From contig CP068257.2 of assembly GCA_009914755.4 (NCBI GenBank), positions 44,160,001 to 44,224,000 on the forward strand: a stretch of DNA of 64,000 nt. Reading direction: 5' to 3'. The first letter of the stretch is position 1. Every line of letters starts with the position of its first letter. Positions 41 to 53,817 of this stretch are shown here, one piece after another. Under the pieces are notes generated by a model, which was not told the origin of the DNA, did no database searches, and saw only the letters and a program-made list of their open reading frames with translations. Source of the DNA: the human T2T-CHM13v2.0 reference genome, Homo sapiens. The position numbers and the translations under genes are program-made.

Positions 41-824
41 TAGTCTCTCAGGGGATCCAGTGGGGAAGCAGAGACCGGTGAGGAGGCTTCACCTGGACCC
101 AGGTGAGAGGTGGTCCCGAGGACGTCATGAGAGGGTCAGATTCAGGATCCGTTTTGAAGGTAGGACCTTCAAACAGAGTGGAGGAAGTACTTGTGGGACA
201 GGGGAGGTGAGGTGACTGCGGGGCTCTAGGCCCGATTAGCAGGAAGGACGAAGTTGTGTCCAGCACTTGCATCGAGGGCAGCCAAGGTGGGACGCCGTGC
301 CATTCAGGCAGAGCAGTGAGCACACAGTTGGATAGAGAGACCCAGGAGAGGTGGACTTGTGCCTGTGGACTTGTGCCTGATTGGTCCCTCCATGATGTTT
401 TATGCCGGAAATGGCATGGGTCATCCGGGGGCGTCTGTGGAGAGAAGAGGAGCAAGGACCCAGGCCTGGGGCGCCCCTGCCTTGGCAGGCTGGGATGCAG
501 TGGAGGAACAAGCAGAGTCTGAGCCTAAGTGGCCAGCGAGGGACCCAGGAGACGCAAAAGCTGAGGGCAGTGCCTCATCAGGAGAGGAGAGATAGTCTCA
601 ATCCTGTGGACAGGTGGGGTAAGGGGAGAGCCAGGAATGAGCCACCAGAGCTCACACAGGTCCTTGGGGGTCTTGAGCAGTTTTAGACTTGGCGGGCAAC
701 AAAAGCAAAAGTGGGGTGCTCTGGAGAGGGAGAAGGACAGCAGAGGGGCTGGGGCAGCAAGGTGGAGTTTTGAAGAGTTTTACTACAAAGGAAAAGAGAG
801 TAGTAGGGGGAAGGAAGCCAGTTT

Positions 825-1030
825 TGAGAGTGGAAGAAACAGTAGGTTGTTTCTGTGTAGGTCACAGCAACCAGCAGAGCTCTCACAAGGGCAGGAGAAC
901 CACTGGGGCAGCCTTGGGATGCCCAGGATGGGGGTGGGCTCAGTAGAGGGGCTGGCTGGCCCACCGAGGCCAGCATCTTGCAGTGGCGAAGGTGCAGAGA
1001 TGGTGGGGTCCATCCCAGGAAGCCCCTCAC
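825..1030 (+). repeat. Copy A of a ~205-bp low-copy direct repeat (partner at 2085-2290)
   Basis: Read directly. The sequence 'gaaacagtag(g/c)ttgt(t/c)tctgtg(t/c)aggt(c/g)(a/g)cagcaacc(a/c)gcagagct…ggggcagccttgggatgcc…ggctggcccaccgaggccagc…gaagcccctc' recurs with ~85% identity. The track ORFs 637..1122 and 2070..2306 share the peptide ESGRNS.L.LCR.QQPAEL.QGQEN.WGSLGMP, which reflects this repeat. Confidence 0.8.
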
Positions 1031-2290: not shown

Positions 2291-4125
2291 TGGGATAAGA
2301 GGTTAGCTTATCTATTGTCTGTGGAAAGAAAACTTAAATAGAGTTTTCTTTTTTAAAAAAGACAGCACAAGTCAGTCTTCTGGTGATTGTAACAGGATGG
2401 TCACCTGAGAACAGTCATCTACTGACACCCTGAACCAGAATCTCCAGAAAAGACAGAAATTTTGAAACAGCAGCAACAACAGAAATTCATGATGTGCTGG
2501 GAGACAGGGATGACTGCAGTCAGAGGACCAGATGTCTTGATTGATTATTAAGAGAGAGAAACAGGCGATGTTTGTGGAATCACATCACCACAGAAGACAT
2601 GCAGACAGGCCTAATGCAGAGAAGAGTGGAAGTTAGGACGCTCAGCGCAGATTAATGGACTCAGGGAGTTGGAGAGGGCTGGCTGGCAGCACTTACTCAG
2701 AGGAGCAGAGCCAGGTATCCCCCTCAAACCCCCCGGCTTTGGGCCCAGGCAGTCAGAAGTTGTGTCGGGGCCAGCCACCAACTCCAGTGAGGGACAGGGA
2801 GCCACTTCCAGGAGATGAAACATTGTCACATGCAGTCCAAAGACACCCCTCCTTCTCCCTGCTGCAACACCCGAGGCTGACCAAAGTAGACAGGAACAGT
2901 ATCCAGGATGAGCAAACCAAGCCTCTCTAAAGCAAAACTGCCAACAAGCTGGGAACCACAGCACGCTGGAGGGAAACCAGCAGCAGGAGAAAGCAGCAGC
3001 AAGCACAGCAGAAAGAAGACGTGGGGCCGCCTTCCGGACGGAGACTCGGTCAGACACACGGCTCCTTCAAAGGGAGTGCCAAAGGCCTTGAAGAGTAGAC
3101 GGTCAAAGTGGCACAGCCAGGAAAGCAGGACTCACAGAATGGGCAGCATGAAGAGTTGCATAGCCACGGACTATTGAGAACGCAGACCCAGAACTGTTAC
3201 CGCACTCAGACGTCAAAAACCGAGAGCTATTCCCGAGCACAGACCGAGGACCAGCGAGTCCAGGACTCGCTGATGCAGAGCTCCAGGACTGACAGGCGGG
3301 GAGAGCGAGAGGAAAAGCTGAGGCCAAGCGCGATGCTGAGAAGCTCCATATTCTGTTTAACAGGAGTCTGAGGACCAGGAAAGAGAGAATATTGAGGGGA
3401 AGATAATGGAGACATCCTAGAAGATCGTCTCCCCGAGCACAGAGCGCATCACAGGACTGACCAGTATTGAGTGGGCGCGGGGAAAACATGGCTGCCAGGA
3501 CCTGTGAGGACCGAGTTTCAGATACTGTGGACAGCGGAGACTCCACAGGGGCTCTGCAGGAGGAGACGGGAGGCGATAGCCCCTGCAAAGCTCTGGCTGG
3601 TGATTGGCATCAGACTTCTCAATGAGAAACTGTACTCTAGATTTAATTAGAACAGTATCTTCAAAATACTCGGGAAAAATGATTTCAAACCTGGAATTGT
3701 AGACACAGACAGACTAGAATTCAAATTGAAGGGCAAAGGAAAAGTGTCTTCAGATAGTGAAGGACTCAGAGGTTACCAGCCTCATCCCTAATACCCTGAC
3801 AAAACTAAAAAAAAGACAACTATCTATGAAAGAAAACAAGTTTTGATTCCACAAATAATGGAGAGGAAAGCATCCAGTGTAACATGTACTAGTCTAAATC
3901 ACTGTTGGTGTATATTGGTATGCAAATTAAAATACTATTTGAAATAAAAATCTCAAGCATATGTATCTGTATAATGATGAGAAGGAGAAAAATGAAAGCT
4001 TACTAAACTTCAGGGTTTTTTTCAGGGGGAATTTATAGATGCTACTCACGCCCGTAGTATAGAAATGAAGGCTTAAATGGATTAATGATTTACAAGGAAC
4101 CATTGTAAATGATTTACAAGGAACC

Positions 4126-4303
4126 CTGGCTCTACAGAAAATTTACAAATTAGCTGGATGTAGTGGTGCGTGCATGTAGTCCCAGCTACTCCAGAGGCTG
4201 AGGTGGGATTATCGCTTGAGCCGAGGAGTTTGGGGCTATAGCAAGCCAAGACCGTGCCTCTGCACTCCAGCCCAGGTGACAGAATGAGACCCCACCTCTA
4301 AAA
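4126..4303 (+). mobile_element. 5'-truncated Alu (middle A-rich linker plus right arm), no long A-tail
   Basis: 'ctctacagaaaatttacaaattagctggatgtagtggtgcgtgc…gtcccagctactccagaggctgaggtgggattatcgcttgagcc…ctgcactccagcccaggtgacagaatgagacccc' matches the Alu right monomer. Confidence 0.8.
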
Positions 4304-4530
4304 TTAAGTAAATAGGAGCTCCCTGAGGAATAGGGACAGATGCATGACTTCACATCTTGAACAGGAAAATTTTCAGAACGAAGAAAACCTCATCAATTCA
4401 CCAAAAGGTGGAGTAGAATGGAAAACATTTGAAATCATAGAAAATATATAAGGCAAGACATTAATTCAAATATGAGGTTAGATTTCTCTATTAAAAGGCA
4501 GACCTCAGATTGTCTTAAAAATGACCCAGA

Positions 4531-4879
<349 letters not shown>

Positions 4880-5169
4880 CTAGAAAGCAGACCAGCAACG
4901 ACATTTTCGTGAAAAAGATGAAAGGCATTAAATGGGACAAAGATACTTCACGTTTATAATCCTCTAAGAAGATACGATCATTGTGAACTTTTATGTACAT
5001 AATTACATAGCTGTGAAATTTATGTAGAAAGAAATTCTAAGAATAAGAGATGGATTAATTCAGTACCATAATGGGAAATTTCAATTGACAAATCAAAGGG
5101 ACCAGAATGTCCGTATGTTTACGAGGAATTTGAATAGCATTCATAACCCACTCTCTTTTTGGAAGGGGA

Positions 5170-5250
5170 CACAGAGGACACTTGTCTTCTTCTTTTTCTT
5201 TTTTTTTTTTTCCCCTTTCCTTTCTTTTCTTTACCTTCTCTCTCTCTCTC
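5170..5250. repeat. Pyrimidine-rich simple repeat: poly-T, (CT)n and (TTTC)n-like
   Basis: 'tcttcttctttttctttttttttttttcccctttcctttcttttctttaccttctctctctctctcc'. Confidence 0.85.
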
Positions 5251-6999
5251 CAGGACCATTCACAAATATCTCTGCCATGTATTTGATTTTATAGAAAATC
5301 TTAATTTTCAAAAGCAGAAATCATAAAGTGCAGTAAAAGTGGAAAAAAACACAAAATGATAGCCAAAAGTAACCCAGGCGTCATTATATACTTGGGAATT
5401 TTGGAATGCCTTTAAATAAAGCATACTGATTAAAAAGTAATGAAAGTGAGAGAATGTTGCACGTCAAACATGAGGGATGCCACAAAAGCAATTCTCAGAA
5501 GAAAATGTCAGAAAACCAGAAACATTTACAATGAATGAACTGGCCATATGACTCTAAAGGTTAGAGAAAGACTTAAAACCAATTCAAGATAAAGTAGGAA
5601 AAATGAATGAAGATAAAATAGAGGTTAATACAGTAGAGCATGGAAACTTATTGCTTGGTGCAATAAATTCTGAAAAAGAATCAATAAAATACTTAAACTG
5701 TTAGCCACTTCGATCAAGAAAGAGAAGGTGTGAAACCTTAAAACTTGGGAAACAGGAAAATAGATACCACTGCAGGTAGGAAGCTGTTAACACTCTAAGA
5801 GACTGCTGTTTACAGCCTCTGTGCAAAGAAATTTGGAAATCTAAGTGAACAGTTTTCTACAAAGATGTAAATCAACGAAACTGCCTCAATGTATGTAATG
5901 AGTCTGAAAAGACCCGTAATTGTGAGAGTGATTGAAAACGCCAGTCAGAGGGCTGCACTCTCACACCACCTGACGATCCCCTCTGCAGGTGGGTTTCAGC
6001 ATGTCCCAAAGGGAGGGTCATGTGTGAGGTCTATAAACCATGCTGGTGTACAGAAACAACAAAACTTCTCCAAGTCATCTGATGAGCTCAGCAATATTGT
6101 CATGTAGAAATTGTGCAAGAATTGTTAAAAAAAAATCTATAGGTAACTGTACCCTCAGAAAACAGATGTGCAATCATAAGTAAAGTGTTAGAAAATTAAA
6201 TCCAACCTGCACTTAGTTTTAACTGTTTTTATTTTCATTTAGGAAGAGCTTTTTACAATTTGGTTTGGAGGTTTTGCTGTGTCTCCTGCCTCAGTTTCCT
6301 CTTTGGGATGCTGTTCACATGTGTTTGCACTTCCTTGTCTGTCTTCTGTATGTATCACTTCTCTTGAATTCTTTTCATTGCTTTTTTAAAAATTTTTTAA
6401 AGTTTCCATTTTTTGTCTGTTGTGTTTATTTGGTCTTTTTGTGTCTTCTAATTTCATCTTTATTTTTGAAATATTTTTCTTTCTATTCCCACATATTTTC
6501 TAGTTCTGTGACCTCAGTTGTTTAGTTTTTCTAATTCTGATTTGTATTTTTTCACCTTTTGCACCATTAATGCCTTTTAGGCAATTAAAAAATACTTGAT
6601 TATGGTTTTTGTCTTTTTTGTTAGCATGTTTTTATGGTGTGTTTATTGTCAGTAAAGATGTTATTTAGTTTCTTATTTTCTTTTGTCTTTTAAAAAACTT
6701 TGTATGGGGTTTGAATTGTGTGAAATTTGTTTCCCAAACCTCTTAGAATGGAAGCATGATTTATAATAGCATTTCTAATTACATAGCTCTTGAAGGCCCT
6801 CTTGTGTTATTTTTATATAAAGTTTAAATACGAGGGCTTAATCAATGAATTTGTAATGTGTCTGGGGACAGGCCATGGAGAATCAGCAGAGAATTAGGTG
6901 GTAATACTGGCTCAGTGCTCATGTTCTGATTTTGATCATTGCACTGTGGTTATCTGGATGTTGTTTTGGGGAAACACATGGTACAGTATTTGGGGTGAA

Positions 7000-9900
7000 A
7001 GAGCGTGGTGTATGGGCCTACAGAGATAGTAAATATGTGGATGGACAGATGTATGGATCCGTAGAGAAAGTGAATGTGAATGCTAGATGGATGGATGCAT
7101 GAATCCATAAAGAAAGTGAATGTGTGCATGGATGGATGAATGCATGGATGGACGAATGCATGGATCCACAGAGAGTGAATGCGTGGATGGACGAGTGCAT
7201 AGGTCCATAGAGAGAGTGAATGCATGGATGGACAAGTGCATGGATCCACAGAGAGTGAATGCATGGATAGTTGAGTGCGTGGATCTGTAGAGAGAGTGAA
7301 TGCATGGATGGACGAGTGCATGGATCCACAGAGAGTGAATGCATGGATAGACGAGTGCATGGATCCATAGAGAGAGTGTAATGCATGGATAGATGAGTGC
7401 ATGGATCCGTAGAGACTGAATGCATGGATGGACAGATGCATGGATCCATAGAGAGAGTGATTGTGTGCATGGATGGATGAATGCATGGATGGATGAATGC
7501 ATGAATCCACAGAGAGTGAATGCATGGATGGATAAGTGCATGGATCCATAGGGAGAGTGAATGCATAGATGGACGAGTGCATGGATCCACAGAGAGTGAA
7601 TGCATGGATGGACGAGTGCGTGGATCCATAGAGAGAGTGAATGCGTGGATAGACTGGATAGATGAGTGCATGGATCCATAGAGAGAGTGAATGCATGGAT
7701 AGACCAGTGCATGGATCCATAGAGAGAGTGAATGCATGGATGGACGAGTGCATGGATCCATAGAGTGAATGCATGGATGGACAAGTGCACAGATCCATAG
7801 AGGGAGTGAGTGCATGGATGGACGAATGCATGGATCCATAGGGAGAGTGAATGCATTGATAGATGAGTGCATGGATCCATAGAGTGAATGCATGGATGGA
7901 CAAGTGCACAGATCCATAGAGGGAGTGAGTGCATGGATGGACGAATGCATGGATCCATAGGGAGAGTGAATGCATTGATAGACGAGTGCATGGATCCATA
8001 GAGTGAATGCATGGATGGACAAGTGCATGGATCCATACAGAGTGAATGCATGGATGGACGAGTGCATGGATCCATAGAGAGAGTGAATGCATGGATGGAC
8101 GAGTGCATGGATCTGTAGAGAGAATGAATGCATGGATGGACGAGTTCATGGGTCCATAGAGTGAATGCTTGAATGGACAAGTGCATGGATCCATAGAGAG
8201 AGTGAATGCATGGATGGACGAGTGCATGGATCCGTAGACAGAGCGAATGCACGGATGGACAGATGCATGGATCCATAGAGTGATTGTGTGCATGGATGGA
8301 TGAATGCATGGATGGATGAATGCATGAATCCACAGAGAGTGAATGCATGGATGGATGAGTGCATGGATCCATAGAGAGAGTGAATACATGGATAGACTGG
8401 ATAGACGAGTGCATGGATCTACAGAGAGTGAATGCATGGATGGACGAGTGCATGGATCTGTAGAGAGAGTGAATGCATGGATGGATGAGTGCATGGATCC
8501 ATAGAGTGAGTGCATGGATGGACGAGTGCACAGATCCATAGAGAGAGTGAATGCATGGATGGACGAGTGCATGGATCCATAGAGAGAGTGAATGCATTGA
8601 TAGACGAGTGCATGGATCCGTAGAGAGAGTGAATGCATGGATGGACGAGTGCATGGATCCATAGAGTGAATACATGGATGGACGAGTGCATGGATCCATA
8701 GACAGAGTGAATGCATGGATGGACGAGTGCATGGATCTGTGGAGAGAGTGAATGCATGGATGGACAAGTTCATGGGTCCATAGAGTGAATGCTTGAATGG
8801 ACGAGTGCATGGATCCATAGAGAGAGTGAATGCATGGATAGATGAGTGCAAGGATCCATAGAGAGAGTGGATGCATGGATAGATGAGTGCATGGATCCAT
8901 AGAGACTGAATGCATGGATGGACAGATGCATGGATCCATAGAGAGAGTGATTGTGTGCATGAATGGATGAATGCATGGATGGATGAATGCATGAATCCAC
9001 AGAGAGTGAATGCATGGATGGATGAGTGCATGGATCCACAGAGAGTAAATGCATGGATAGACGAGTGCATGGATCCATAGAGACTGAATGTGTGGATGGA
9101 CAGATGCATGGATCCATAGAGAGAGTGATTGTGTGCATGGATGGATGAATGCATGAGTCCACAGAGAGTGAATGCATGGATGGATGAGTGCATGGATCCA
9201 TAGAGAGAGTGAATGCATGGATAGACTGGATAGACGAGTGCATGGATCCACAGAGAGTGAATGCATGGATGGATGAGTGCATGAATCTGTAGAGAGAATT
9301 AATGCATGGATGGATGAGAGCATGGATCCATAGAGAGTGAATGCATGGATGGACGAGTGCATGGATTCATAGAGAGAGTGAATGCATGGATAGACTGGAT
9401 AGACAAGCGCATGGATCCGTAGAGAGAGTGAATGCATGGATGGACGAGTGCATGGATCCGTAGAGAGAGCGAATGCATGGATGGATGAGTGCATGGATCC
9501 ATAGAGAGTGAATGCATGGATGGACGAGTGCATGGATCCATAGAGAGAGTGAATGCATGGATAGACTGGATAGACAAGTGCATGGATCTGTAGAGAGAGT
9601 GAATGCATGGATGGGCGAGTGCACGGATCCATAGAGTGAATGCATGGATGGACGAGTCATAGAGAGAATGAATGCATGCATGGAGGAATGCATGGATCTG
9701 TAGAGAGTGAATGCATACATGGATGAATGCATGGATCCATAGAGTGAATGCATGGATGGACGAGTGCATGGATCCATAGACAGAGTGAATGCATGGATGG
9801 ACGAGTGCATGGATCCTTAGAGAGAGTGAATGCATGGATGGCCAGATGCATGTATCCATAGAGAGTGAATGCATGGATGGACGAATGCATGGATCCATCA

Positions 9901-12165
9901 ACAGAGTGTACGGATGGATGAATGCATGGATCAATAGAGAGAGTGAATGTGTGAATGGATGAATGCATAGATTCATAGAGAGAATGAATGCATGCATGGA
10001 GGAATGCATGGATCTGTAGAGAGAGTGAATGCGTACATGGATGAATGCATGGATCCGTAGAGTGAATGTGTGAATGGATGAATGCATAGATTCATAGAGA
10101 GAATGAATGCATGCATGGAGGAATGCATGGATCTGTAGAGAGTGAATGCATACATGGATGAATGCATGGATCCATAGAGTGAATGCATGGATGGACGAGT
10201 GCATGGATCCATAGAGAGTGAATGCATGGATGGATGAGTGCATGGATCCATAGAGAGAGTGAATGCATGGATGGACGAGTGCATGGATCCATAGAGAGAG
10301 TGAATGCATTGATAGACGAGTGCATGGATCCGTAGAGAGAGTGAATGCATGGATGGATGACTGCATGGATCCATAGAGACTGAATGCATGGATGGACGAG
10401 TGCATGGATCCTTAGAGAGAGTGAATGCATGGATGGACAGATGCATGTATCCATAGAGAGTGAATGCAGGTATGGACAAATGCATGGATCCATCAACAGA
10501 GTGTATGGATGGATGAATGCATGGATCCATAGAGAGAGTGAATGGATGCATACATGGATGAATGCATGGATCTGTAGAGAGAGTGAATGCATGGATGGAT
10601 GAATGCATGGATCCATAGAGAGAGTGAATGGATGCATACATGGATGAATGCATGGATCTGTAGAGAGAGTGAATGCATGGATGGATGAATGCATGGATCT
10701 ATAGAGAGAGTGAATGGATGCGTACATGGATGAATGCATGGATCCATAGAGAGAGTGAATGGATGTGCATGTGGATGAATGCATGGATCCTTAGAGAGAG
10801 TGAATACGTGGATGGACAGATGCATGTATCCATAGAGAGTGAATGCATGGATGGACGAATGCATGGATCCATAGAGAGAGTGAATGCATGGATGGATGAG
10901 TGCATGGATCCATAGAGAGAGTGAATGGATGCCTACATGGATGAATGCATGGATCCATAGAGAGAGTGAATGGATGTGTACATGGATGAACGCATGGATC
11001 TGTAGAGAGAGTGAATGGATGCGTACATGGATGAATGCATGGATCCGTAGAGAGAGTGAATGGATGTGCATGTGGATGAATGCATGGATCCTTAGAGAGA
11101 GTGAATACGTGGATGGACAGATGCATGTATCCATAGAGAGTGAATGCATGGATGGACGAATGCATGGATCCATAGAGAGAGTGAATGCATGGATGGATGA
11201 ATGCATGGATCCATAGAGAGAGTGAATGGATGTGTACATGGATGAATGCATGGATCCATAGAGAGAGTGAATGGATGCGTACATGGATGAATGCATGGAT
11301 CCATAGAGTGAATGTATGCGTACATGGATGAATGCATGGATCCATAGAGAGAGTGAATGGATGTGTACATGGATGAATGCATGGATCCGTAGAGAGAGTG
11401 AATGGATGGGTACATGGATGAATGCATGGATCCGTAGAGAGAGTGAATGGATGCGTACATGGATGAATGCATGGATCTGTAGAGAGAGTGAATGCATGGA
11501 TGGATGAATGCATGGATCCATAGAGAGAGTGAATGGATGCGTACATGGATGAATGCATGGATCCATAGAGAGAGTGAATGGATGTGTACATGGATGAATG
11601 CATGGATCCATAGAGAGAGCGAATGGATGTGTACATGGATGAATGCATGGATCCATAGAGAGAGTGAATGGATGTGTACATGGATGAATGCATGGATCTG
11701 TAGAGAGAGTGAATGGATGTGTACATGGATGAATGCATGGATCCATAGAGAGAGTGAATGGATGTGTACATGGATGAATGCATGGATCTGTAGAGAGAGT
11801 GAATGCGTACATGGATGAATACATGGATCCGTAGAGAGAGTGAATGGATGTGTACATGGATGAATGCATGGATCTGTAGAGAGAGTGAATGCGTACATGG
11901 ATGAATGCATGGATCCATAGAGTGAATGGATGTGTACATGGATGAATGCATGGATCTGTAGAGAGAGTGAATGCGTACATGGATGAATGCATGGATCCAT
12001 AGAGAGAGTGAATGGATGTGTACATGGATGAATGCATGGATCTGTAGAGAGGGTGAATGCGTACATGGATGAATGCATGGATCCATAGAGAGAGTGAATG
12101 GATGTGTACATGGTTGAATGCGTGGATCTGTAGAGAGAGTGAAAGTGTGCATGGACGAATTCATG
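7000..12165. repeat. Compound minisatellite (VNTR-like), ~5.2 kb, ~120 units. A 41-bp unit family (GAATGCATGGATGGACGAGTGCATGGATCCATAGAGAGAGT) spans ~7000-10500 and a 45-bp unit family (GTGAATGGATGTGTACATGGATGAATGCATGGATCCATAGAGAGA) spans ~10500-12165
   Basis: Read directly. There is head-to-tail repetition with a GGATCC (BamHI) or GGATCT site in nearly every unit. Interspersed variant units carry a 'ggatagactggatagac' insertion or 'gcatgcatggaggaatgc'. The minus strand has no stop codons in any frame for kilobases, which produces the 747, 849, 514 and 457-aa artefact ORFs (MHSSIHAFTLSMDPCTRPS…). Confidence 0.95.
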
Positions 12166-13792
12166 ACACACAGATGGGCCGGAATATAAGTAATTGGATA
12201 AATGAGGTAAAGGATATGTAGATGTTCTTTTTAATGCTTGTACACTTTTTTCAAGGTTTGAAATTATATCACAATAACAAGTTGTCCGATGAGTACAGTA
12301 GTCCCCCTTTGTCCACAGTTTCACTTTCTGTGATTTCAGTCACCCATGGTACAGTATAGTGAGATATCTTGAGAGAGAGAGACCATATTTACATAACTTT
12401 TATTATGGCATATTGATAAAATTGTTCTGTTTTATTATTAATCTTCCTCTGTACCTAATTTATACATTAAAATTTATCATAGGACAGTTTATAACAGGGT
12501 TTGGTATAGTCCATGGTTCCAGGTAGCCACTGAGAGTCTTGGAACGTACCCCTCTTGGATAAGGGGGGAGGGCTGCAGAATGAATTCTTCAGCCTTCTCC
12601 TCAGAACAGATCTTCTGCAAGACTTTGGCAGATGATGCTGTGACCCCGGTGTCACAGGCCAGGTGGACGGCCAGGCCAAGGTATCCGTGCCTGGTCCTGA
12701 GGGGCCAGGCACGCGTCCACGGCAGGGCCACCCAGAGCCTGGGGTGCTGGGAACTGGGCTTTGTTTTAGTTTCTCAAATGCTTTTCTCAAACTGGAATTT
12801 TAATTACAACAAAATTAATGCCGCAGAATATGATTAAAAAATAATGAGCTGAGAACAAGCAGCCTCTTGAGGTGATGTCCCTGTGGCTGAGCCCAGGAGG
12901 CCTTGATGCGGGCAGAGGCTGTGCTAGCTTCACCAGGTTGGCACCGGGCTCTCCAATGCCTGGTTGCTGGTGGCTTGGACAGCTGTCGGGGAGGGTCCTC
13001 TCAGCTCCCGCGCCCTCTGCCCACAGCTTGTTCTCTCACTGTGAGAACCACCCAGTGATGGTTCTTGTGCTGTTCTCTCTTCATGAATCATGGCCTGGCT
13101 TCCGTGCAGCTGCCTTTTTGGAGGAGGCTGCAGGAGCACAGAGTAATGGCTGCAGGTGGGGCCTTCCAGAGGCACAGGCTGAGGGGCCAGGCAGCAGTTC
13201 CTCTCTTGCAGCTTTTTCTTGGGAGCACCGGGCCAAGCCAGAGGCTCCTGGCAGATCCACCCACAGAGACAGCAGGTCCAGGTCAGGGCTACCCCTCGCA
13301 CAGCCCAGCAGGATGTGGGAGCAAGCCTGTGCGCCCTGAGCCAGGCCTTCTGTGAAGTGCAGATGATGTCGCCTTTGTAGACAAAGGAAGAGACCTTGGA
13401 ACCTGAGGGTAAATGGAGAGGCTCTTTACCAGCACTGAACTCTGAGCCCAACTGGCTCCAAACAGGCGTGTTGTGGGCGTGTCCTGAGGTGTGTGCCTGA
13501 CCTGACCCTGAGGCCCCCTCCCTGCCATGCCTCTAACCCACCCAACACCACCAGCCTTGCTGGTGCCTCCTGCCCTGCCCTCTGCTCTCAGCTGCCTGCC
13601 CTGGTCACCTGCCACCCCTTCGTGCTGGGCCCTTGGGCCAAGCACCGCATGCAGCCTGGTGCACACCTGTGCCCTCCTGAGCCTGGGTGAGGTGGCCCTC
13701 CCACCTGGGCCATGTGCCTCACTATGCCTAGGCCACAGCCCGGGAGGGAGGATGTCTTTCCCTGACCTCGTTTGTGTGGCCCTGGTGCCCAA

Positions 13793-13955
13793 TGACTGAC
13801 TTTCCTTCTGCTCCCAGCCCTGCATCCTCCTGGGAGATGGGGTGTTTGAGCATGGGGTTCCCGCCTCCTCCTCCAAGTGACTTTCCTTCTGCTCCCAGCC
13901 CTGCATCCTCCCAGGAGATGGGGTGCCTGAGCATGGGGTTCCCGCCTCCTCCAGG
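13793..13955. repeat. Tandem duplication, ~82-bp unit ×2
   Basis: 'tgactttccttctgctcccagccctgcatcctcc(t/c)(g/a)ggagatggggtg(tt/cc)tgagcatggggttcccgcctcctcc' occurs twice back to back. The track ORF 13774..14085 shows the duplicated peptide DFPSAPSPASS.EMGCLSMGFPPPP. Confidence 0.85.
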
Positions 13956-16357: not shown

Positions 16358-16490
16358 CTTTTCTGTGGTGGTGAAGGTGGCATCCCCTCCTAGCAGCTGC
16401 ACACTGGGGTGGTCCTGAGGAAAGGAGGGCGAGAGCAGAGCTTGGGGGCGGGCCATGAGGGGAAGTCCAGGCCTCTCCACCCAAGGATGA
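16358..16490 (+). repeat. Copy 1 of a ~130-bp low-copy module (partner at 18718-18935)
   Basis: 'ttctgtggtggtgaaggtggcatcccctcctagcagctgcacactggggtggtcctgaggaaaggagggcgagagcagagcttgggggcgggccatgaggggaagtccaggcctctccacccaagga' recurs 2.3 kb downstream. The track ORFs 16269..16502 and 18577..18924 share 'SSALALLSSGP'. Confidence 0.85.
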
Positions 16491-18717: not shown

Positions 18718-18935
18718 CTCCTGTCTTTCTGTGGTGGTAAAGGTGACATCCCCTCCTAGCAGCTGCACACTGGAGTGGTCCTGAGGAAAGCGCGCTCCTG
18801 TCTTTCTGTGGCAGCGAAAGTGGCATTCCCTCCTAGCACCTGCACACTCGGATGGTCCTGAGGAAAGGAGGGCGAGAGCAGAGCTGGGGGGGCGGGCCAT
18901 GAGGGGAAGTCCAGGCCTCTCCACCCAGGAGTCTG
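18718..18935 (+). repeat. Copy 2 of the module, here with its first ~70 bp tandemly doubled
   Basis: 'ctcctgtctttctgtgg(tggt/cagc)(a/g)aaggtg(a/g)cat(c/t)ccctcctagca(g/c)ctgcacact(gga/cgga)tggtcctgaggaaag' appears twice. It is followed by '…gagggcgagagcagagctgggggggcgggccatgaggggaagtccaggcctctccacccagga', which matches 16420-16490. Confidence 0.85.
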
Positions 18936-20042: not shown

Positions 20043-22183
<2,141 letters not shown>

Positions 22184-23201: not shown

Positions 23202-23566
<365 letters not shown>

Positions 23567-26920: not shown

Positions 26921-27205
26921 TAGTCGTGCATCGCTTAATGACAGGGACACATGCTGAGAAATGTGTTGTTAGGCAATTTCCTCCCTGTGTGAACATCATG
27001 GTGTGGACTTACACAAACCTAGCTGGTGCAGCCCACTACACACCTAGGCTGTATGGTACAGCCTATTGGTCTTAGGCTACAAAGCTGTGTAGTGCATGAC
27101 TGTGCTGAATACTGTACGCAGTTGTGACACAGTGGCAATTGTGTGTTTAAACACTTCGAAACATAGAAAAGGTGAAGTAAAAATACAGTATAAAACATAA
27201 AGAAT
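26921..27205 (+). mobile_element. Non-autonomous DNA-transposon fragment (TcMar/Tigger-like MITE; family not assigned) with one terminal inverted repeat end present
   Basis: 'agtcgtgcatcgcttaatgacagggacacatgctgagaaatgtgttgttaggcaatttcc…cttacacaaacctagctggtgcagcccactacacacctaggctgtatggtacagcctattggtcttaggctacaaagctgtg…aaacatagaaaaggtgaagtaaaaatacagtat' matches a common human DNA-transposon consensus that I recall as 'cagtcatgcgtcgcttaacgacgg…gttctgagaaatgcgtcgttaggc…cacaaacctagatggtatagcctact…'. Confidence 0.65.
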
Positions 27206-27225
27206 GGCACACCTGGGTAGGGCAT

Positions 27226-28790
27226 TTATGAATGGAGCTGGCAGGACTGGAGGTTGCTCTGGGTGAGTGAGTGGTGGGTGAGTGGTGAGTGAGCTAGTGA
27301 GTGGTGAGTGGTGAGTGAGCTGGTGAGTGGTGAGCTAGTGAGTGGTGAGTGAGTGGTGAATAGTGAGTAGTGAGTGGTGGGTGAGTGGTGAGTGATGAGT
27401 GGTAAGTGGTGAGTGAGTGGTGAGTGGTGACTGAGTGATGAGTGGTGAGTGGTGAGTGGTGAGTGATGAGTGGTGAGTGAGTGATGAGTGGTGAGTGAGT
27501 GGTGAGTGATGAGTGATGAGTGGTGAGTGGTGAGTGATGAGTGGTGAGTGAGTGATGAGTGGTGAGTGGTGAGTGATGAGTGGTGAGTGGTGAGTGAGTG
27601 GTGAGTGGTGAGTGATGAGTGGTGAGTGAGTGGTGAGTGATGAGTGGTGAGTGATGAGTGAGTGGTGAGTGGTGAGTGAGTGGTGAGTGATGAGTGAGTG
27701 GTGAGTGGTGAGTGGTGAGTGATGAGTGGTGAGTGAGTGGTGAGTGGTGAGTGAGTGGTGAGTGGTGAGTGAGTGGTGAGTGATGAGTGAGTGGTGAGTG
27801 ATGAGTGGTGACTGGTGAGTGAGTGGTGAGTGATGAGTGGTGAGTGAGTGGTGAGTGAGTGGTGAGTGATGAGTGAGTGGTGAGTAGTGAGTGATGAGTG
27901 GTGAGTGAGTGGTGAGTGGTGAGTGATGAGTGAGTGGTGAGTGAGTGGTGAGTGGTGAGTGAGTGGTGAGTGATGAGTGAGTGGTGAGTGAGTGATGAGT
28001 GGTGAGTGGTGAGTGGTGAGTGAGTGATGAGTGATGGGTGAGTGGTGAGTGATGAGTGAGTGGTGAGTGAGTGGTGAGTGGTGAGTGAGTGGTGAGTGAT
28101 GAGTGAGTGGTGAGTAGTGAGTGATGAGTGGTGAGTGGTGAGTGAGTGGTGAGTGGTGAGTGGTGAGTGAGTGGTGAGTGATGAGTGAGTGGTGAGTGAG
28201 TGGTGAGTGAGTGGTGAGTAGTGAGTGATGAGTGGTGAGTGGTGAGTGAGTGGTGAGTGGTGAGTGAGTGATGAGTGAGTGGTGAGTGATGAGTGGTGAG
28301 TGGTGAGTGATGAGTGAGTGGTGAGTGAGTGGTGAGTGGTGAGTGAGTGGTGAGTGATGAGTGAGTGGTGAGTGGTGAGTCAGTGGTGAGTGGTGAGTGA
28401 GTGATGAGTGATGGGTGAGTGGTGAGTGATGAGTGAGTGGTGAGTGAGTGGTGAGTGATGAGTGAGTGGTGAGTAGTGAGTGATGAGTGGTGAGTGGTGA
28501 GTGAGTGGTGAGTGGTGAGTGAGTGGTGAGTGGTGAGTGAGTGGTGAGTAGTGAGTGGTGAGTGGTGAGTGAGTGGTGAGTGGTGAGTGAGTGATGAGTG
28601 AGTGGTGAGTGATGAGTGGTGAGTGGTGAGTGAGTGGTGAGTGGTGAGTGAGTGGTGAGTGGTGAGTGAGTGGTGAGTGGTGAGTCAGTGGTGAGTGGTG
28701 AGTGGTGAGTGAGTGGTAAGTGGTGAGTGAGTGGTGAGTGGTGGGTGAGTGAGTGATGAGTGAATCTGAAGGCCAGGACATTACTGTGCA
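27226..28790. repeat. Minisatellite of (GTGAGTG[G/A]T)-type units, ~1.56 kb, with a GGTGAGT / GTGAGTGAT / GAGTGAGTG higher-order pattern
   Basis: Read directly: the array 'gagtggtgagtgagtgatgagtggtgagtggtgagtgatgagtg…' runs uninterrupted. The 526-aa track ORF 27226..28806 (…HHSPLTHHSLTTHSPL…) is its stop-free minus-strand translation. Confidence 0.95.
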
Positions 28791-29036
28791 CTGCTGTAGA
28801 CTTCATAAGTACTGTACACTTGGGATATGCTAAATTTATGATATAACAAAATTTATTTCTTCAATAATAAATTAACCTTAGCTTACTCTAACTTTTTTGC
28901 TTTATAAACCTTTAGATTTATTTTTTAACTTTTGACTCTTTTGTAATAACACTTAGCTTAAAACACAAACACATTGTATGCAGCTACGCCAAAATATTTT
29001 CTTTATGTTTTTATAAGAATTTTTCATGTTTAAGAT

Positions 29037-29150
29037 CCCCTTCCCCTTCCCCCTCCCCGTCCCCTGCCCCTCCCCTCCCTCTCCCTCCTCCCCTTCCCCC
29101 TCCCCTCCCCTCCCCTCCCCTCCCCTCCCCTCCCCTCCCCTCCCCTTTTG
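29037..29150. repeat. (CCCCT)n / (CCCCTCCCCT)n simple repeat; the opposite strand is (AGGGG)n
   Basis: 'ccccttccccctccccgtcccctgcccctcccctccctctccctcctccccttccccctcccctcccctcccctcccctcccctcccctcccctcccc'. A short (CA)7 follows at 29163-29176. Confidence 0.95.
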
Positions 29151-33972: not shown

Positions 33973-34210
33973 ACCCCCCTGCACCACGCTGTGGGCCCCG
34001 CACCCTCCCCCAACTCTTTTCTACAACACTCTTCCCCCTGCACCGTGCTGTGGGCCCCGCACCTTCCCCCAACTCTTTTCTAGAACACTCTTCCCCCTGC
34101 ACCACGCTGTGGGCCCTGTGCCTTCCCCTAACTCATTTCTAGAATACTCTTCCCTGCCTGCACCCTGCTGTGGGCCCCGCCCCCTCCCCTAACTCATTTC
34201 TAGAACTCTC
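33973..34210. repeat. Minisatellite, ~60-bp unit ×4
   Basis: 'c(a/c)ctcttcc(ccc/ctgcc)tgcacc(a/g/c)(c/t)gctgtgggcccc(g/t)(c/t)(a/g)cc(c/t)tccccc(a/t)aactc(t/a)tttctagaa' occurs four times in tandem. Confidence 0.85.
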
Positions 34211-35107
34211 TTCCTCACCTGTCTCCCTGGTTCTTGTTCTGGCTTCTCCACGGGACCCTCCTGTCCTCCCGTGTGATGCTGACTGCTCGTGACATGTTGC
34301 AGCCTGTCTCTGCTCCCTTCCCTGCTCTTGTCACTTCTTGCTGGTGCTCTGTGGCTGTCATGCAGACTGGGGTTGGGGTTCTGTTCCCTCTACTGTACTG
34401 GAGCTCCAGGTCATGGGAGGCAGCAGAGCCCAGCCCTGGCCCTTCGAGCTTCCGTCCTGCAAGCACCGGCAGTGTCAGGGAGGCACCGCCCAGGGGAGGC
34501 TCCTCCTTAGGGTGCATTGTCACTCGGCGTTTCCGACACCTGCTCTCATCATTTTCCTACCTTCTCTTTCCTGACAACTTAGATATTTATCAGACCCCAA
34601 AATCATGAGCCTTGAGAAATGATATTCCACATGCTCATCCTCTGGAGGACACCTGGAACTGAGCTTGCTTCCCTGCTCACCCTGGGAAGTGGTTTCACAA
34701 TGTCCCTCAACGTGTGACTATCACCCATAGCCTCCGGTATCTCTCTGTGTTCAGTGTGAGGCCATTTGCTCGTTTGACCCTTTTGAAGGTCAGGAGAAGC
34801 TGGCAGGACTCCTGCAGGCACAGGCACCGGCACCGTCATCCTGGGAGCCATCGGGGTCCTCAGCCCCCACTGCAGCCTGAGCCTTTCCTCTGGCCACACT
34901 GTCCATTTCTTTAGCTCCTCTTTTGCCTTTTCTGGGGCCTTCTCCGGTGTTCTGCGTTCTTTTAAATGTTTCATGGTTAAAACTGGACACATCCCCCAAG
35001 AAGCTATAAATCAACCATAGCAAGAACTGATCTCTTTCCAGGTGACTATAAAAATGATTTTTTAAAAATGGTTCTTTAAAAATTGTCAGTTAAGCAGATA
35101 ACAGACC

Positions 35108-35345
35108 CAAGACAGGGCCAGGAGAGTGAGGGGCGGATATGGCATGGGACAGGGTTAGGAGAGCAAGGGGTGGACCTGGCATGGGACAGGATTAGGAGAG
35201 CAAGGGGCGGACCCAGCACAGGATAGGGCCAGGAGAGCAAGGGGCGGACCCGGCATGGGACAGGGTTAGGAGAGTGAGGGGCGGACCCAGCAGGGGACAG
35301 GGTTAGGAGAGTGAGGGACAGGGTTAGGTGCACGAGGGGCAGACC
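35108..35345. repeat. Minisatellite, ~37-bp unit ×~6.5; each unit contains a GGGGCGG (GC-box-like) core and a CpG
   Basis: 'gacagggttaggagag(t/c)(g/a)aggggcggac(c/a)(c/t)(a/g)gca(t/c)(g/a)g' is repeated. The copies read …gaggggcggatatggcatgg / …aaggggtggacctggcatgg / …aaggggcggacccagcacag / …aaggggcggacccggcatgg / …gaggggcggacccagcagggg / …cgaggggcagacctggcacag. Confidence 0.9.
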
Positions 35346-38893: not shown

Positions 38894-41800
38894 TTAAATA
38901 AAGCAGTGAGAATGAGACAAGTCCAGGTGTCATGTTACCTCAATGCATTTGAACGGTTCAACTTTCCTGTTAAAAGACAGGCACAAGAGCTGCTCTGATC
39001 CACATAACGCAGGTGAATGTGAGGATAACTACACTCAGTGAAAGAAGCTTGACATGAATGAGTCTAAACTCTGATTTCACGCATGCAAAATTCTAGGTGT
39101 GTGAAGTACTCTGTGGTGACGTGAAGCAGATGCGTGGCCTTCAGCTTTTAGGAGGATGGAGTCAGGGTGCCTTCCCTGTCCTCCCCACCAGGCATGACAA
39201 AGGTGCTGGGTATTTTATATAAAACATGCATAAAAGATTCTGAAAGGTGGGAAGAAGAAGGCCAGCCAGCCACATACCTCAGGACCCATGGGACGACATG
39301 GTGGTGAGTTCCCTGGGTCATTTGTTCCAGATGGGGCACTGGACAAGTCAGAAAACTGGAAACGCCAGTGGGTACAGGCAAAAAGCAAACAAGAAAATAA
39401 AATTCTAACAAACTCTGTTCTCTCTAACCAGAGGAGGAGGAAAGGGGCAGCCTAGCCGGACAGAACAAAACGTGCTCTGCCTTGGCCAGACCTCCCCAAA
39501 ACTGTGGCCACAGCCTCCCCCGAGTCAGGAAAGGCCAAGTGGAGAGTTGAGGCTTCTGCTTGTACCCACCCGTGTCAAGGTGCTCCAGTCCACACCATGG
39601 GGGCATCAAGGAGGCTGACAGGGACACGTACTCCCAGCTGAGCCAGGGAGCATCAGGGAGGCTGATGGGGACATGTACTCCCAGCTGAGCCAGGCTCTCA
39701 AGAGCGCTCCCCACTCCCGCGTCCCTGGGGACCACACGGGGACTGGAGCTCCCTACCTGCTCAGGATCTCCTTCCCATTTGGGCATCAGCTGAGGGACAA
39801 GGAGCCCTTCCCATCTGGGCATCAGCTGAGGCCAGGGGCGGAACCTAGATGCCTCTTCTAACCTGGCGGCAATGAGGCAGCACACCTCTGCCCCCGCTGC
39901 GATGGTGTCGGAGGAGGCCGGTGAAAATGAGATAAAAGAAGATCTGGACATGATCATCACGTCACATCACATGGCCAGGTTTCAACTGCAGGTCCTCACA
40001 CACGCCAAGAACCAGGAAGACTCCAGTTCAGCTGACAAAAGGCAATCGACAGACACCAACACCAACACCCAGATGACATGGGCACCGAAGTTACCCAACA
40101 GGGCTTTTAAAAAAGACATCATAAAGATGCTTCAGTGAGCCGTCACCAGCTCTACACAGTGAGGAAGTGGAAAGTCTCAGCCAAGCGAAGACGGAGGGCC
40201 AACCAAGTCGAGGTTTCAGAACTGAAAGTACAGCCACCAGAATTTAGAAATTCACATTGTACACTGTGATGTATGCAGTTTTATGTACATCAGTTACATC
40301 TCAGCCAAGCTGTTAATAAGCAGAACTCAGGGTCCCAGGGAAGTCCAAGGACTCACTCTTCATGAGACCTCAATTAAAAGACCCAGAAAGTTTAAAATGA
40401 AAGAGATGGAGGAGTTGCCAGATTCATACCAACAGGAGAAAGAAAATTTGGAACTAACCTGGCCAGGAAAGTGGGCTGAGACTTTGTGCTGCTGGTGCTG
40501 CTGTCTGGGAAGGAGGCAGAGCAGCTCTGAGGGGCTTGGGGAGGCTGTAGTAATGAAAGGTCCTCAGATGCCAGTGGCTGATACATAGACAAGTTTATTT
40601 CCTGTTCACCTGTGTCAGCTGTGGCTCTTGTCTTCAACCCCTTCCCAAGCAACTAGTGCAGTCCCCATCTGGAGTGTCGCTGGTGTTGGAGCAGAGCAGT
40701 GAGAGCACAGACAACCACCCGCAGGACGGGAGTTATTCTTCCCACAAGAGACGCCAACTGGCCAAGACTTCAGGGGGTGGGAAGTGTAGGCCTCTCCCAG
40801 GGACAGGCAGTGAATATGCATGAGCAGTAATTCAGTCACCATCATTTGCCCTTCTGGTCACAAATATTTGCTTCCCAGCTTTCCCCATGCAAAATAAACC
40901 CTACCCAAGGAAGATGGCCCCAAAGTCTGGTCCCTTCATGGCACCAGGCTTAATGCCCAGACTCTTAATACGGTGAGTTACTCTCGCTCTGGATCTGCCC
41001 CCTCGTGCTCTGGAAACCTGAGCCGAGAAGCTGCCCACTGCCCTCCCACCCCAGTATACATGGGTGGGATCAGTTCGCAACAACTTGAACCAGCCGCACT
41101 TTCCAGTGGAGCTGAAATGGGAAATGCTGGGCACTCCTGCAGCCCAGCCCTGCTGAAAGTCTGCTGGGCACATGCAGGAGCCTCCCCGCAGGCTGGGAGT
41201 CCCTCCCGTCCTCCATCCCTGTCATTCCTGTATCCTCTGGAGCAGGTGCCGGCATTTCCATGAAAGGCGGATGGTAAATACTCAGGCTGGGTGGGCTCTG
41301 TGCTGTGTGTCCGTTGTGTGCAACTCAAAGGTGCCTGCTCGGCTTTCCTCCTTGGCCACAGGGAAGTGGGCCTGGGAGAGTGTGTGTCCCTGGAGGCAGA
41401 GTGGCCTCTCCGCCCCGCAGCCCGTCGCACGCTTGACTTCTGGTCCCTCAGGAGGCAGCCTGCTCTGAGTACCCACGGTCATGCCCAGGCTCCTTTGGGG
41501 GCTGGATGGAGGAGCTCCACCTCTGTCCCCGTGCCCCCTAGCAGCTCTGCCCAACTGGAAGCCTTGTGCCAGCGGTGTGGACAGAAGGTGTTGTGTCTGA
41601 CTTGTGTCTTCCCACATTTCACAGGTCGAACTTACCAGGTGAAGCTGGATTACTTCCCGGCCTCCTTATAATGGAAAGAGCCAGTGTAGGAGCTGGGACA
41701 GGGATGGAAGGGCCATTGGCCGAGTTTGAGATGGCATTTCACAACTCCAGGGTGCCACGGTTTCACAACTCCAGAGCAGGGGTATAAGCCTGTCCTCTGC

Positions 41801-52784: not shown

Positions 52785-53110
<326 letters not shown>

Positions 53111-53304: not shown

Positions 53305-53817
<513 letters not shown>

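What the first reader, a model, noticed from the sequence alone, without database searches (positions are those of the whole stretch)
7000..12165. 5.2-kb compound minisatellite with two unit families, periodic BamHI sites and a kilobase-scale stop-free minus strand
The array is large, ~120 units. It switches from a 41-bp unit (…TGCATGGATGGACGAGTGCATGGATCCATAGAGAGAGTGAA…) to a 45-bp unit (…TGGATGTGTACATGGATGAATGCATGGATCCATAGAGAGAGTGAA…) near 10500, and blocks of variant units lie between (ggatagactggatagac insertions, 9650-10150). Arrays of this size and internal heterogeneity in human DNA are usually hypervariable VNTRs. They expand and contract by unequal exchange and are often subtelomeric. 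The unit length is not a multiple of three and the minus strand lacks stop codons in all three frames. If the array were transcribed and translated, it would give an unusually long low-complexity H/S/I/M-rich product; I regard that as an artefact, not a gene. The GAATG- and GGATG-rich composition is reminiscent of pericentromeric satellites but is not pentameric.
Basis: seen in the sequence. Interest (0 to 1): 0.6.

Follow-up and report, generated by a model that had tools for sequence, protein, structure and literature searches.

The report
Ordinary non-coding primate minisatellite array
This is a real 5.1-kb head-to-tail array of about 122 copies of a 41/45-bp unit in Alu-bearing primate DNA, an ordinary non-coding minisatellite (VNTR-type repeat) whose long "open reading frames" are a by-product of its base composition.

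Summary
The array is real. It runs from about 6995 to 12172 and holds about 122 head-to-tail units, all on the + strand, with no copy elsewhere in the window. There is a 41-bp family (37/39/41-bp variants) and a 45-bp family that first appears at 10539.

- The GGATAGACTGGATAGA insertions lie at 7647-9574, not 9650-10150.
- The minus strand is not stop-free. It has 18 stop trinucleotides, and the longest open run is 857 codons.
- 45 and 39 are multiples of three.
- In addition, only 81 of 122 units keep the BamHI site.

The internal anatomy fits a methylated, non-coding minisatellite that evolves by slippage and unequal exchange:
- 4-base sub-periodicity and 2- and 4-base length changes between units.
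- Multi-unit block duplications at 98-100% identity.
- Degenerate edges and a more homogeneous 3' end.
- Half of all unit differences are CpG transitions.

The minus-strand ORFs are an artefact. The consensus units contain no stop trinucleotide on that strand, which is also true of 14-27% of shuffled units. Unit lengths ignore the reading frame, and there are no protein or Pfam matches.

It is not HSat2/3, not an SVA VNTR and not a Jeffreys-core or G4 minisatellite. Haplotype variability, chromosomal locus and species could not be tested, because the reachable collections returned no matching DNA. Interest is low.

The parts
6995..7175 (+). Degenerate 5' edge units (proto-units, 46-59 bp)
   Evidence: The sequence was read directly. 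These units have the lowest tiling scores (14-26). Mean pairwise identity is 0.66, against 0.80-0.90 inside the array.
7176..9635 (+). 41-bp family domain. Consensus TGAATGCATGGATGGACGAGTGCATGGATCCRTAGAGAGAG, with 37/39/41-bp variants that differ in the (AG)n tail. It also holds 48-50-bp variants carrying GGATAGACTGGATAGA and recurring 59-bp variants.
   Evidence: Unit tiling. Insertion variants at 7647, 8390, 9219, 9388 and 9559. A 119-bp (41+41+37) block is duplicated, 7746-7908 against 7865-8027, at 99.4% identity. Long-range blocks 7381-7548 and 8871-9038 match at 98.2%.
9636..10538 (+). Transition domain. 41-bp units are mixed with the first units that carry the GYRTACATGGATGAATG half-unit (at 9708, 10026 and 10143), the likely precursor of the 45-bp unit.
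   Evidence: Unit tiling. A perfect 124-bp duplicate, 9657-9780 against 10092-10215. A further duplicate, 9786-9949 against 10381-10544.
10539..11222 (+). Interleaved 45/41-bp domain. 45-bp consensus TGAATGGATGYRTACATGGATGAATGCATGGATCYRTAGAGAGAG.
   Evidence: Unit tiling. A seven-unit block is duplicated and extends into the next domain: 10691-10990 against 10992-11291, 300 bp at 98% identity.
11223..12139 (+). 45-bp domain, the most homogeneous part of the array. It ends in four copies of an 86-bp (41+45) higher-order unit at 11800-12139.
   Evidence: Autocorrelation peaks at lag 45 (0.771) and lag 86 (0.717). TRF period 86 at 85% matches. Mean pairwise unit identity 0.90.
12140..12172 (+). 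Degenerate terminal partial unit (TGAAAGTGTGCATGGACGAATTCATGACACACAGATGG)
   Evidence: Read directly from the sequence.
7083..9632 (-). Longest listed minus-strand ORF (849 aa; S, H, L and I are the commonest residues). It is a compositional artefact, not a gene. Similar ORFs are open in all three minus frames along the array.
   Evidence: ORF list. No protein homologue at E<=0.001. No Pfam family. The consensus units have no stop trinucleotide on this strand.

Best explanation
The feature is a non-coding minisatellite (VNTR-class tandem repeat) lying between interspersed repeats in Alu-bearing primate DNA. It has no demonstrated function. What can be explained is how it arose and how it changes.

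1. A short motif rich in TGGA/GGAT became a unit of about 41 bp. The unit consists of two related 15-base halves (GAATGCATGGATGGA and GAGTGCATGGATCCA) plus an (AG)n tail.
2. Replication slippage changes unit length in steps of 2 and 4 bases. This gives the 37/39/41-bp variants through the (AG)n tail. A 4-base GATG/GGAT gain turned a variant 41-bp unit into the 45-bp unit.
3. Unequal sister-chromatid or homologue exchange, or gene conversion, duplicates blocks of 2 to 7 or more units. This builds local higher-order repeats of 86, 119 and 301 bp and spreads variants. The 3' end has been homogenised most recently, while the edges decay.
4. The array is methylated in the germ line, so its two CpGs per unit decay to TpG/CpA. 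This accounts for about half of all unit differences and about half of the lost BamHI sites.
5. The long minus-strand ORFs exist only because one stop-free unit was copied about 120 times.

Steps 2-4 are inferred from footprints in one haplotype. No mutation or polymorphism was observed directly.
For: - Tandem head-to-tail structure on one strand only.
- 4-base sub-periodicity: lag 4 at 0.573, lag 8 at 0.496 and lag 12 at 0.448, against a random expectation of 0.283. The two half-units share 12 of 15 bases.
- Unit length classes 37/39/41/45 differ by 2 or 4 bases.
- Multi-unit duplicates at 96-100% identity, at lags of 45 to 1712 bp.
- Homogeneity gradient: mean pairwise unit identity of 0.66 at the 5' edge, 0.80-0.82 through the middle, 0.85 and then 0.90 at the 3' end.
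- CpG decay. At GGATC(NN)TAG the states are CA 55, TG 17, CG 11 and others 8. At GGA(NN)A they are TG 55, CG 36 and CA 7.
- 96 of 186 differences from a CpG-restored consensus are CpG transitions. Transitions outnumber transversions 160 to 26.
- 20 of the 41 units without a BamHI site read GGATCT.
- Non-coding: only 44 of 122 units have a length divisible by three, close to the one-third expected by chance. All three minus frames are similarly open.
- Both consensus units have zero stop trinucleotides on the minus strand. So do 27% (41-bp) and 14% (45-bp) of composition-matched shuffled units on at least one strand.
- No protein homologue and no Pfam hit. No Rfam family in the window.
- A second purine-skewed array in the same window, (GTGAGTG)n, shows the same artefact with a 526-aa ORF.
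- The literature describes this class and these mechanisms (PMC8327921; PMC7767330).
Against: - No second haplotype or orthologue could be obtained, so copy-number variability, which is the defining property of a VNTR, is untested.
- The counts of CpG transitions count units, not independent events, because variant units are copied.
- The CpG-restored consensus is my own inference: CG is the only state that is one step away from both CA and TG.
- Methylation is inferred, not measured.
- A regulatory or structural role is not excluded.
- The array has 56 copies of the 10-base palindrome ATGGATCCAT. Single strands of the 45-bp domain fold somewhat better than shuffles, with z of -3.5 and -3.7. 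These features could matter for instability or for protein binding.
Confidence: 0.9

Rival explanations
1. The array is a diverged block of pericentromeric satellite (HSat2/HSat3, the (GGAAT)n/(CATTC)n family), as its GAATG- and GGATG-rich look suggests.
For: GAATG occurs 168 times and GGATG 150 times in the array.
Against: - There is no pentameric periodicity. Lag 5 gives 0.174, below the random expectation of 0.283, while lag 4 gives 0.573.
- The diagnostic GGAAT occurs 3 times and ATTCC 0 times.
- The array is only 5 kb and sits among Alus, L1 fragments and non-repeated sequence.
Confidence: 0.02
2. The array is the internal VNTR of a transposable element, such as an SVA or another element with internal tandem repeats, expanded in place.
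For: - SVA VNTR units are about 35-50 bp (a 41-bp average at the C2 locus is stated in the abstract of PMC2119228).
- Another array in this window, (GTGAGTG)n, does sit inside a dispersed element that has an array-less paralogue in the window.
Against: - No (CCCTCT)n hexamer repeat anywhere in the window.
- The flanks show no duplication and no element-like termini around the array.
- The unit is C-poor (579 C against 1753 G) and about 45% G+C, whereas the SVA VNTR is G+C-rich (from my own knowledge).
- There is no other copy of the unit in 64 kb.
Confidence: 0.05
3. The minus strand encodes a real repetitive protein rich in H, S, L and I, or the array is a coding-exon VNTR.
For: - Open frames of up to 857 codons.
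- 18 stop trinucleotides observed on the minus strand, against 165 expected from base composition.
Against: - The stop depletion is inherited from a single stop-free unit, a property shared by 14-27% of shuffled units.
- All three frames are open, rather than one.
- Unit lengths shift the frame at nearly two-thirds of unit junctions.
- No homologue among 5.8 billion clustered proteins, no Pfam family, and the exact ORF is not on record.
Confidence: 0.01
4. The array is a functional cis element: a tandem battery of binding sites (for example the ATGGATCCAT palindrome) or a methylation-sensitive regulatory VNTR that affects nearby genes.
For: - 56 exact copies of the 10-base palindrome and 136 copies of ATGCAT.
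- The titles and abstracts of the VNTR papers listed tie VNTR variation to gene expression.
Against: - No evidence in the sequence beyond the repetition itself.
- The palindrome is eroded by CpG decay without apparent constraint: 41 of 122 units have lost the BamHI core.
- No clear gene, and only one weak CpG-island-like window, was found in 64 kb.
Confidence: 0.05

Closest known systems
Human/primate minisatellites (VNTRs) as catalogued from long-read assemblies. More than 55,000 are reported in the human genome, with examples in WDR7, CACNA1C and SLC6A3 (PMC8327921).
   Same: - Unit of 10-100 bp in a head-to-tail array.
- Internal variant units.
- Block duplications and deletions as the main source of change.
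- Non-coding setting in a minisatellite-rich region with many G+C-rich stretches.
   Different: - No named locus could be matched.
- At about 5.1 kb and about 122 copies the array seems large for the class to me, but I did not compare it with published size distributions.
- Copy-number polymorphism was not testable here.
Classical Jeffreys-core and G-quadruplex minisatellites (MS1, MS32, CEB1, CEB25)
   Same: Same size class of unit and array, and a strand asymmetry with a G-rich strand (GC skew about 0.5).
   Different: - No GGGCAGGANG core in the array, even allowing one mismatch.
- Only 10 GGG runs in 5.1 kb, so canonical G4 formation is not expected.
- No PRDM9 13-mer within 4 kb.
Human satellites 2 and 3 ((GGAAT)n-derived)
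   Same: Superficial richness in GAATG and GGATG.
   Different: The sub-period is 4 bases, not 5. GGAAT is virtually absent. The array is small and embedded among interspersed repeats.
Higher-order repeat organisation of satellite DNA (for example alpha satellite)
   Same: Local higher-order units (86 bp = 45+41; 119 bp = 41+41+37; 301 bp = 7 units) and degenerate array edges, as expected from unequal crossing-over (PMC7767330).
   Different: The higher-order units are short-range and few in copy number (2-4), not chromosome-wide, and the monomer is 41-45 bp.

Membership tests
Minisatellite / VNTR | Repeat unit of roughly 10-100 bp | tested here: met
   Units of 41 and 45 bp, with variants from 33 to 59 bp. 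The definition is taken from PMC7767330.
Minisatellite / VNTR | Uninterrupted head-to-tail tandem array at a single locus | tested here: met
   122 contiguous units. All 95 core matches are on the + strand within 7050-12141, with none elsewhere in the window.
Minisatellite / VNTR | Copy number varies between individuals or haplotypes | not testable with these tools
   No other copy of the locus was reachable. The metagenome, prokaryotic-genome, protein and exact-ORF look-ups all returned nothing. Only indirect footprints of duplication are available.
Human satellite 2/3 | Derivation from (GGAAT)n/(CATTC)n pentamers with 5-base periodicity | tested here: not met
   Lag 5 autocorrelation is 0.174 against 0.573 at lag 4. 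GGAAT occurs 3 times and ATTCC 0 times.
SVA retrotransposon VNTR | VNTR flanked by a (CCCTCT)n hexamer and Alu-like region on one side and SINE-R plus poly(A) on the other | tested here: not met
   No CCCTCT hexamer repeat in the window. Reading the flanks shows no such modules next to the array. The SINE-R consensus itself was not searched.
Jeffreys-core / G4 hypermutable minisatellites | GGGCAGGANG-like core, or G-runs able to form quadruplexes | tested here: not met
   No core match inside 7000-12165 with up to 1 mismatch. GGG occurs only 10 times.
Protein-coding tandem repeat | Unit lengths that preserve the frame, a single open frame, and detectable homologues or domains | tested here: not met
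   44 of 122 unit lengths are divisible by three. Three frames are open. No homologues and no Pfam family.
Subtelomeric repeat region | Location within about 500 kb of a telomere, with TAR1 or interstitial TTAGGG nearby | tested here: inconclusive
   No TTAGGG dimer in the window. The window does hold many other minisatellites and many G+C-rich stretches. The chromosomal position is unknown.

The most novel reading that the evidence does not exclude
The array could be a lineage-specific, strongly length-polymorphic VNTR whose 41-45-bp units each carry a palindromic site (ATGGATCCAT, flanked by ATGCAT). In that reading it acts as a methylation-sensitive multi-site platform for a DNA-binding protein and influences chromatin or expression of neighbouring genes. 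Nothing in the sequence argues for this beyond the repetition itself, and the sites decay freely by CpG transitions.
Probability: 0.04. Interest if true: 0.4.

Novelty: already known. Interest (0 to 1): 0.08.

Why it matters
It matters little. Minisatellite arrays with internal variant units and local higher-order structure are a well-described class in primate genomes. This one shows the textbook footprints of that class: slippage, unequal exchange and CpG decay. The practical lessons are these:
- Kilobase ORFs on the pyrimidine-rich strand of a skewed tandem repeat should not be read as genes. The same window gives a second example at 27226-28806.
- Irregular restriction-site ladders in such arrays are explained by CpG decay.

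If the locus turned out to be highly polymorphic, it could serve as a marker or as a candidate expression-associated VNTR. That would still be a member of a known kind.

Tried and rejected
- **Finding other copies or haplotypes.**
  - A protein search with the 849-aa ORF gave no hits.
  - Exact-ORF look-ups for two ORFs found nothing.
  - Two metagenome scans and one prokaryotic-genome scan with unit cores gave 0 hits.
  - These scans returned no matching DNA, so polymorphism and orthology could not be examined.
- **Literature.**
  - Full-text search for 16-base unit fragments on both strands gave 0 papers.
  - Three VNTR catalogue papers have no supplements held as text.
  - A search for 41-bp minisatellites surfaced only the SVA VNTR in C2, which does not fit.
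- **Identifying the locus through coding exons.**
  - I ranked 772 repeat-masked stop-to-stop ORFs with a human codon-usage score.
  - All scores were low. The best cluster, at 2890-3622, appeared on reading to be an old L1.
  - I decided against a pasted search of about 17,000 residues, because Alu- and L1-derived ORFs would swamp it and the answer would not change the verdict.
- **A flank direct repeat or target-site duplication around the array.** Nothing significant was found. The best match was 15 of 16 bases at E = 0.18.
- **BLAST self-alignment for block duplicates.** It failed because of HSP merging. I replaced it with an ungapped diagonal scan.
- **Strong secondary structure.** Folding energies are modest, with z of -1.2 to -3.7, and there are no long inverted repeats.
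- **RNA families.** No Rfam family was found in the window.
Full report
**Observation**

The array exists and is far beyond chance.
- Tandem Repeats Finder reports a period-41 array at 7478-12165 (113.6 copies, 79% matches, score 3527). Alternative rows have period 80 (7137-12104) and period 86 (9914-12165, 85% matches).
- A dynamic-programming tiling against two consensus units gives 122 units between 7025 and 12139. 83 are closer to the 41-bp consensus and 39 are closer to the 45-bp consensus. Unit lengths are 41 (53 units), 45 (23), 39 (17) and 37 (13), with a few of 33-59 bp.
- Degenerate proto-units extend the array to about 6995 on the left and 12172 on the right.
- A 23-base core (TGCATGGATCCATAGAGAGAGTG) matches 95 times with up to 3 mismatches, against 0 expected. 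Every match is on the + strand and inside 7050-12141.
- The array is therefore uniformly head-to-tail and has no relative elsewhere in the 64 kb (see also the self-comparison).

Right:
- The size, the estimate of about 120 units and the two unit families.
- The first 45-bp unit at 10539.
- The concentration of BamHI sites: 81 of the window's 88 are in the array.
- Open frames of kilobase scale on the minus strand.

Wrong or imprecise:
- The GGATAGACTGGATAGA insertion units are at 7647, 8390, 9219, 9388 and 9559, not at 9650-10150.
- The minus strand is not stop-free. It has 12, 4 and 4 stops in the three frames over 7000-12165, or 18 stop trinucleotides in the array.
- 45 and 39 are multiples of three.
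- Only 81 of 122 units retain GGATCC. BamHI spacings are monomers (37-50 bp, 48 intervals), dimers (78-108 bp, 26), trimers (117-131 bp, 5) and one interval of 160 bp.

**Host and surroundings**

- The window is primate DNA. A 23-base Alu core matches 16 times against 0 expected.
- An L1 ORF2 fragment is readable at 21562-21975.
- From my own knowledge of these repeats, not from a database test, 2700-6150 reads like an old L1 and 12296-12575 reads like a Tigger-type MITE with terminal inverted repeats.
- No Rfam family reaches its threshold in the window.
- I found no convincing coding exon. All codon-usage scores of 772 masked ORFs were low, and the best cluster lies in the L1-like stretch.
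- Only one weak CpG-island-like window exists, at 3001-3500.
- There are no TTAGGG repeats, and no PRDM9 13-mer closer than 16368.
- The window holds many other tandem arrays and many stretches of 55-62% G+C. That is typical of minisatellite-rich, often subtelomeric, primate DNA, but the chromosomal position is unknown.

**Anatomy**

- The 41-bp consensus is TGAATGCATGGATGGACGAGTGCATGGATCCRTAGAGAGAG.
- It consists of two related halves, GAATGCATGGATGGA and GAGTGCATGGATCCA (12 of 15 bases identical), followed by an (AG)n tail. The length of that tail gives the 37/39/41-bp classes.
- The whole array has a strong 4-base sub-period. Autocorrelation is 0.573 at lag 4, 0.496 at lag 8 and 0.448 at lag 12, against a random expectation of 0.283. 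It is only 0.174 at lag 5. The array is built on TGGA/GGAT-type tetranucleotides, not on pentamers.
- The 45-bp consensus is TGAATGGATGYRTACATGGATGAATGCATGGATCYRTAGAGAGAG.
- Units with the same altered half but without the extra four bases (TGAATGCRTACATGGATGAATG...) appear earlier, at 9708, 10026 and 10143. They appear again in the 86-bp higher-order repeat at 11800-12139. The 45-bp unit is therefore most simply a 4-base (GATG/GGAT) slippage gain in a variant 41-bp unit. This is an inference.

**Evidence for block-wise turnover**

An ungapped diagonal scan finds multi-unit duplicates:

| Copy A | Copy B | Length | Identity | Lag |
|---|---|---|---|---|
| 10691-10990 | 10992-11291 | 300 bp | 98% | 301 (seven units) |
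| 7746-7908 | 7865-8027 | 163 bp | 99.4% | 119 (three units) |
| 9657-9780 | 10092-10215 | 124 bp | 100% | 435 |
| 7381-7548 | 8871-9038 | 168 bp | 98.2% | 1490 |
| 8533-8666 | 10245-10378 | 134 bp | 98.5% | 1712 |

- Mean pairwise unit identity rises from 0.66 at the 5' edge, through 0.80-0.82 in the middle, to 0.85 and then 0.90 at the 3' end.
- Degenerate edges with a homogenised interior or end are what unequal exchange and conversion produce in tandem arrays. This is established knowledge, reviewed in PMC7767330. Course et al. (PMC8327921) attribute differences between VNTR alleles mainly to internal duplications and deletions.

**Evidence for CpG decay**

- At the position inside and just after the BamHI site, the states are CCA 55, CTG 17, CCG 11 and others 8.
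- At GGA(NN)A the states are TG 55, CG 36 and CA 7.
- At GATG(NN)TAC the states are TG 12, CG 5 and CA 2, plus CG 5 and CA 2 in the short form.
- In each case CG is the only state that is one step away from both other common states.
- Against a consensus with CG restored, 96 of 186 differences in full-length units are CpG transitions, although CpGs occupy only 4 of the 41-45 positions. Transitions outnumber transversions 160 to 26.
- Of the 41 units without a BamHI site, 20 read GGATCT.
- These counts are of units, not independent events, because variants are copied. The pattern is that of a germ-line-methylated, unconstrained sequence.

**The open reading frames**

- The consensus units contain none of TTA, CTA or TCA, so the minus strand of a perfect array has no stop in any frame.
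- This is not unusual. 27% of composition-matched shuffles of the 41-bp unit, and 14% of shuffles of the 45-bp unit, have at least one strand free of stop trinucleotides.
- The apparent depletion (18 observed against 165 expected from base composition) is one chance property copied about 120 times.
- All three frames are comparably open and give nearly the same S/H/L/I-rich composition.
- Only 44 of 122 units have a length divisible by three.
- A search of 5.8 billion protein clusters found nothing at E <= 0.001. The exact ORF is not on record. Pfam finds nothing.
- The (GTGAGTG)n array at 27267-28762 produces the same kind of 526-aa ORF. It even gives a spurious Pfam 'Cementoin' score with no individually significant stretch.

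**Other structural checks**

- Single-strand DNA folding of three-unit segments is modest: z of -1.2 and -2.0 in the 41-bp domain, and -3.5 and -3.7 in the 45-bp domain.
- The array holds 56 copies of the 10-base palindrome ATGGATCCAT and 136 copies of ATGCAT. It has only 10 GGG runs and no CCC.
- There are no long inverted repeats.
- Small hairpins could assist slippage, but nothing points to a strong non-B structure or to canonical G-quadruplexes.

**Comparison with known kinds**

- The array meets the structural definition of a minisatellite: a 10-100-bp unit in a single-locus tandem array.
- The defining population property, variable copy number, could not be tested.
- It fails the tests for HSat2/3, because there is no pentameric period and GGAAT occurs only 3 times.
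- It fails the test for an SVA VNTR, because there is no hexamer repeat and no SVA modules next to the array.
- It fails the test for Jeffreys-core or G4 minisatellites, because there is no core match and few G-runs.
- It fails the test for coding repeats.
- I could not match it to a named locus. Sequence fragments occur in no searchable paper, and no catalogue supplement was available.

**Verdict**

This is an ordinary, non-coding primate minisatellite with local higher-order structure. Its features are explained by slippage, unequal exchange or conversion, and CpG decay.

I rate the kind as already known. I could not confirm that this particular locus is individually catalogued, and I note that openly. 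Since the window looks like assembled primate genome sequence, any standard tandem-repeat annotation would already flag it.

Interest is low. The most novel reading left open is a functional multi-site regulatory VNTR. I put that at about 4%.

Noticed in passing
window 27267-28762 (ORF 27226-28806, minus strand): A second large array, (GTGAGTG)n with period 7/18/25, runs for 1.5 kb with GC skew of about 0.8. It yields a 526-aa S/H/T/L-rich minus-strand ORF. That ORF scores 59 bits against Pfam Cementoin (PF10511) with no individually significant stretch, which is a low-complexity false positive.
   Followed up: partly
window 26954-27268 and 28746-29014 versus 52674-53784: The two flanks of the (GTGAGTG)n array have an inverted paralogue (76-85% identity) at 52674-53784. 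In the paralogue the flank-equivalent points abut (53226 and 53230) and an Alu is inserted (52768-53090). The array therefore appears to have expanded inside one copy of a dispersed element, and the other copy looks like an 'empty' state.
   Followed up: partly
window 12296-12575: About 130 bp to the right of the array there is a short element with inverted ends (cagtagtccccctt...gtccacag / ...cttggataaggggggagggctg) and an internal (GA)n stretch. From memory it resembles a Tigger-type MITE. This was not checked against a repeat library.
   Followed up: no
window 2700-6150: A purine-rich + strand stretch reads like an old L1 (5' region, ORF1 and the start of ORF2). It accounts for the best 'coding-like' ORFs and for the only CpG-island-like window, at 3001-3500.
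   Followed up: partly
window 823-1028 and 2088-2290; 16360-16487 and 18726-18930: There are local dispersed duplicates: 206 bp at 87% identity about 1.3 kb apart, and 129 bp at 91% identity about 2.4 kb apart. The second pair overlaps a 77-bp x2 tandem repeat.
   Followed up: no
window 13797-13952, 33975-34214, 35111-35311, 39599-39694, 57966-58365, 29036-29146, 23210-23261: Many further small arrays: 81 bp x1.9, 59 bp x4, 37 bp x5.4, 47 bp x2, 66/134 bp x6/3, (TCCCC)20 and (TG)26. The window as a whole is unusually rich in minisatellites.
   Followed up: no
whole window: The Jeffreys-core-like motif GGGCAGGANG (up to 1 mismatch) occurs 44 times against 23 +/- 5 expected. None of the matches is in the focal array. 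The excess probably reflects the composition of the G+C-rich flanks.
   Followed up: no
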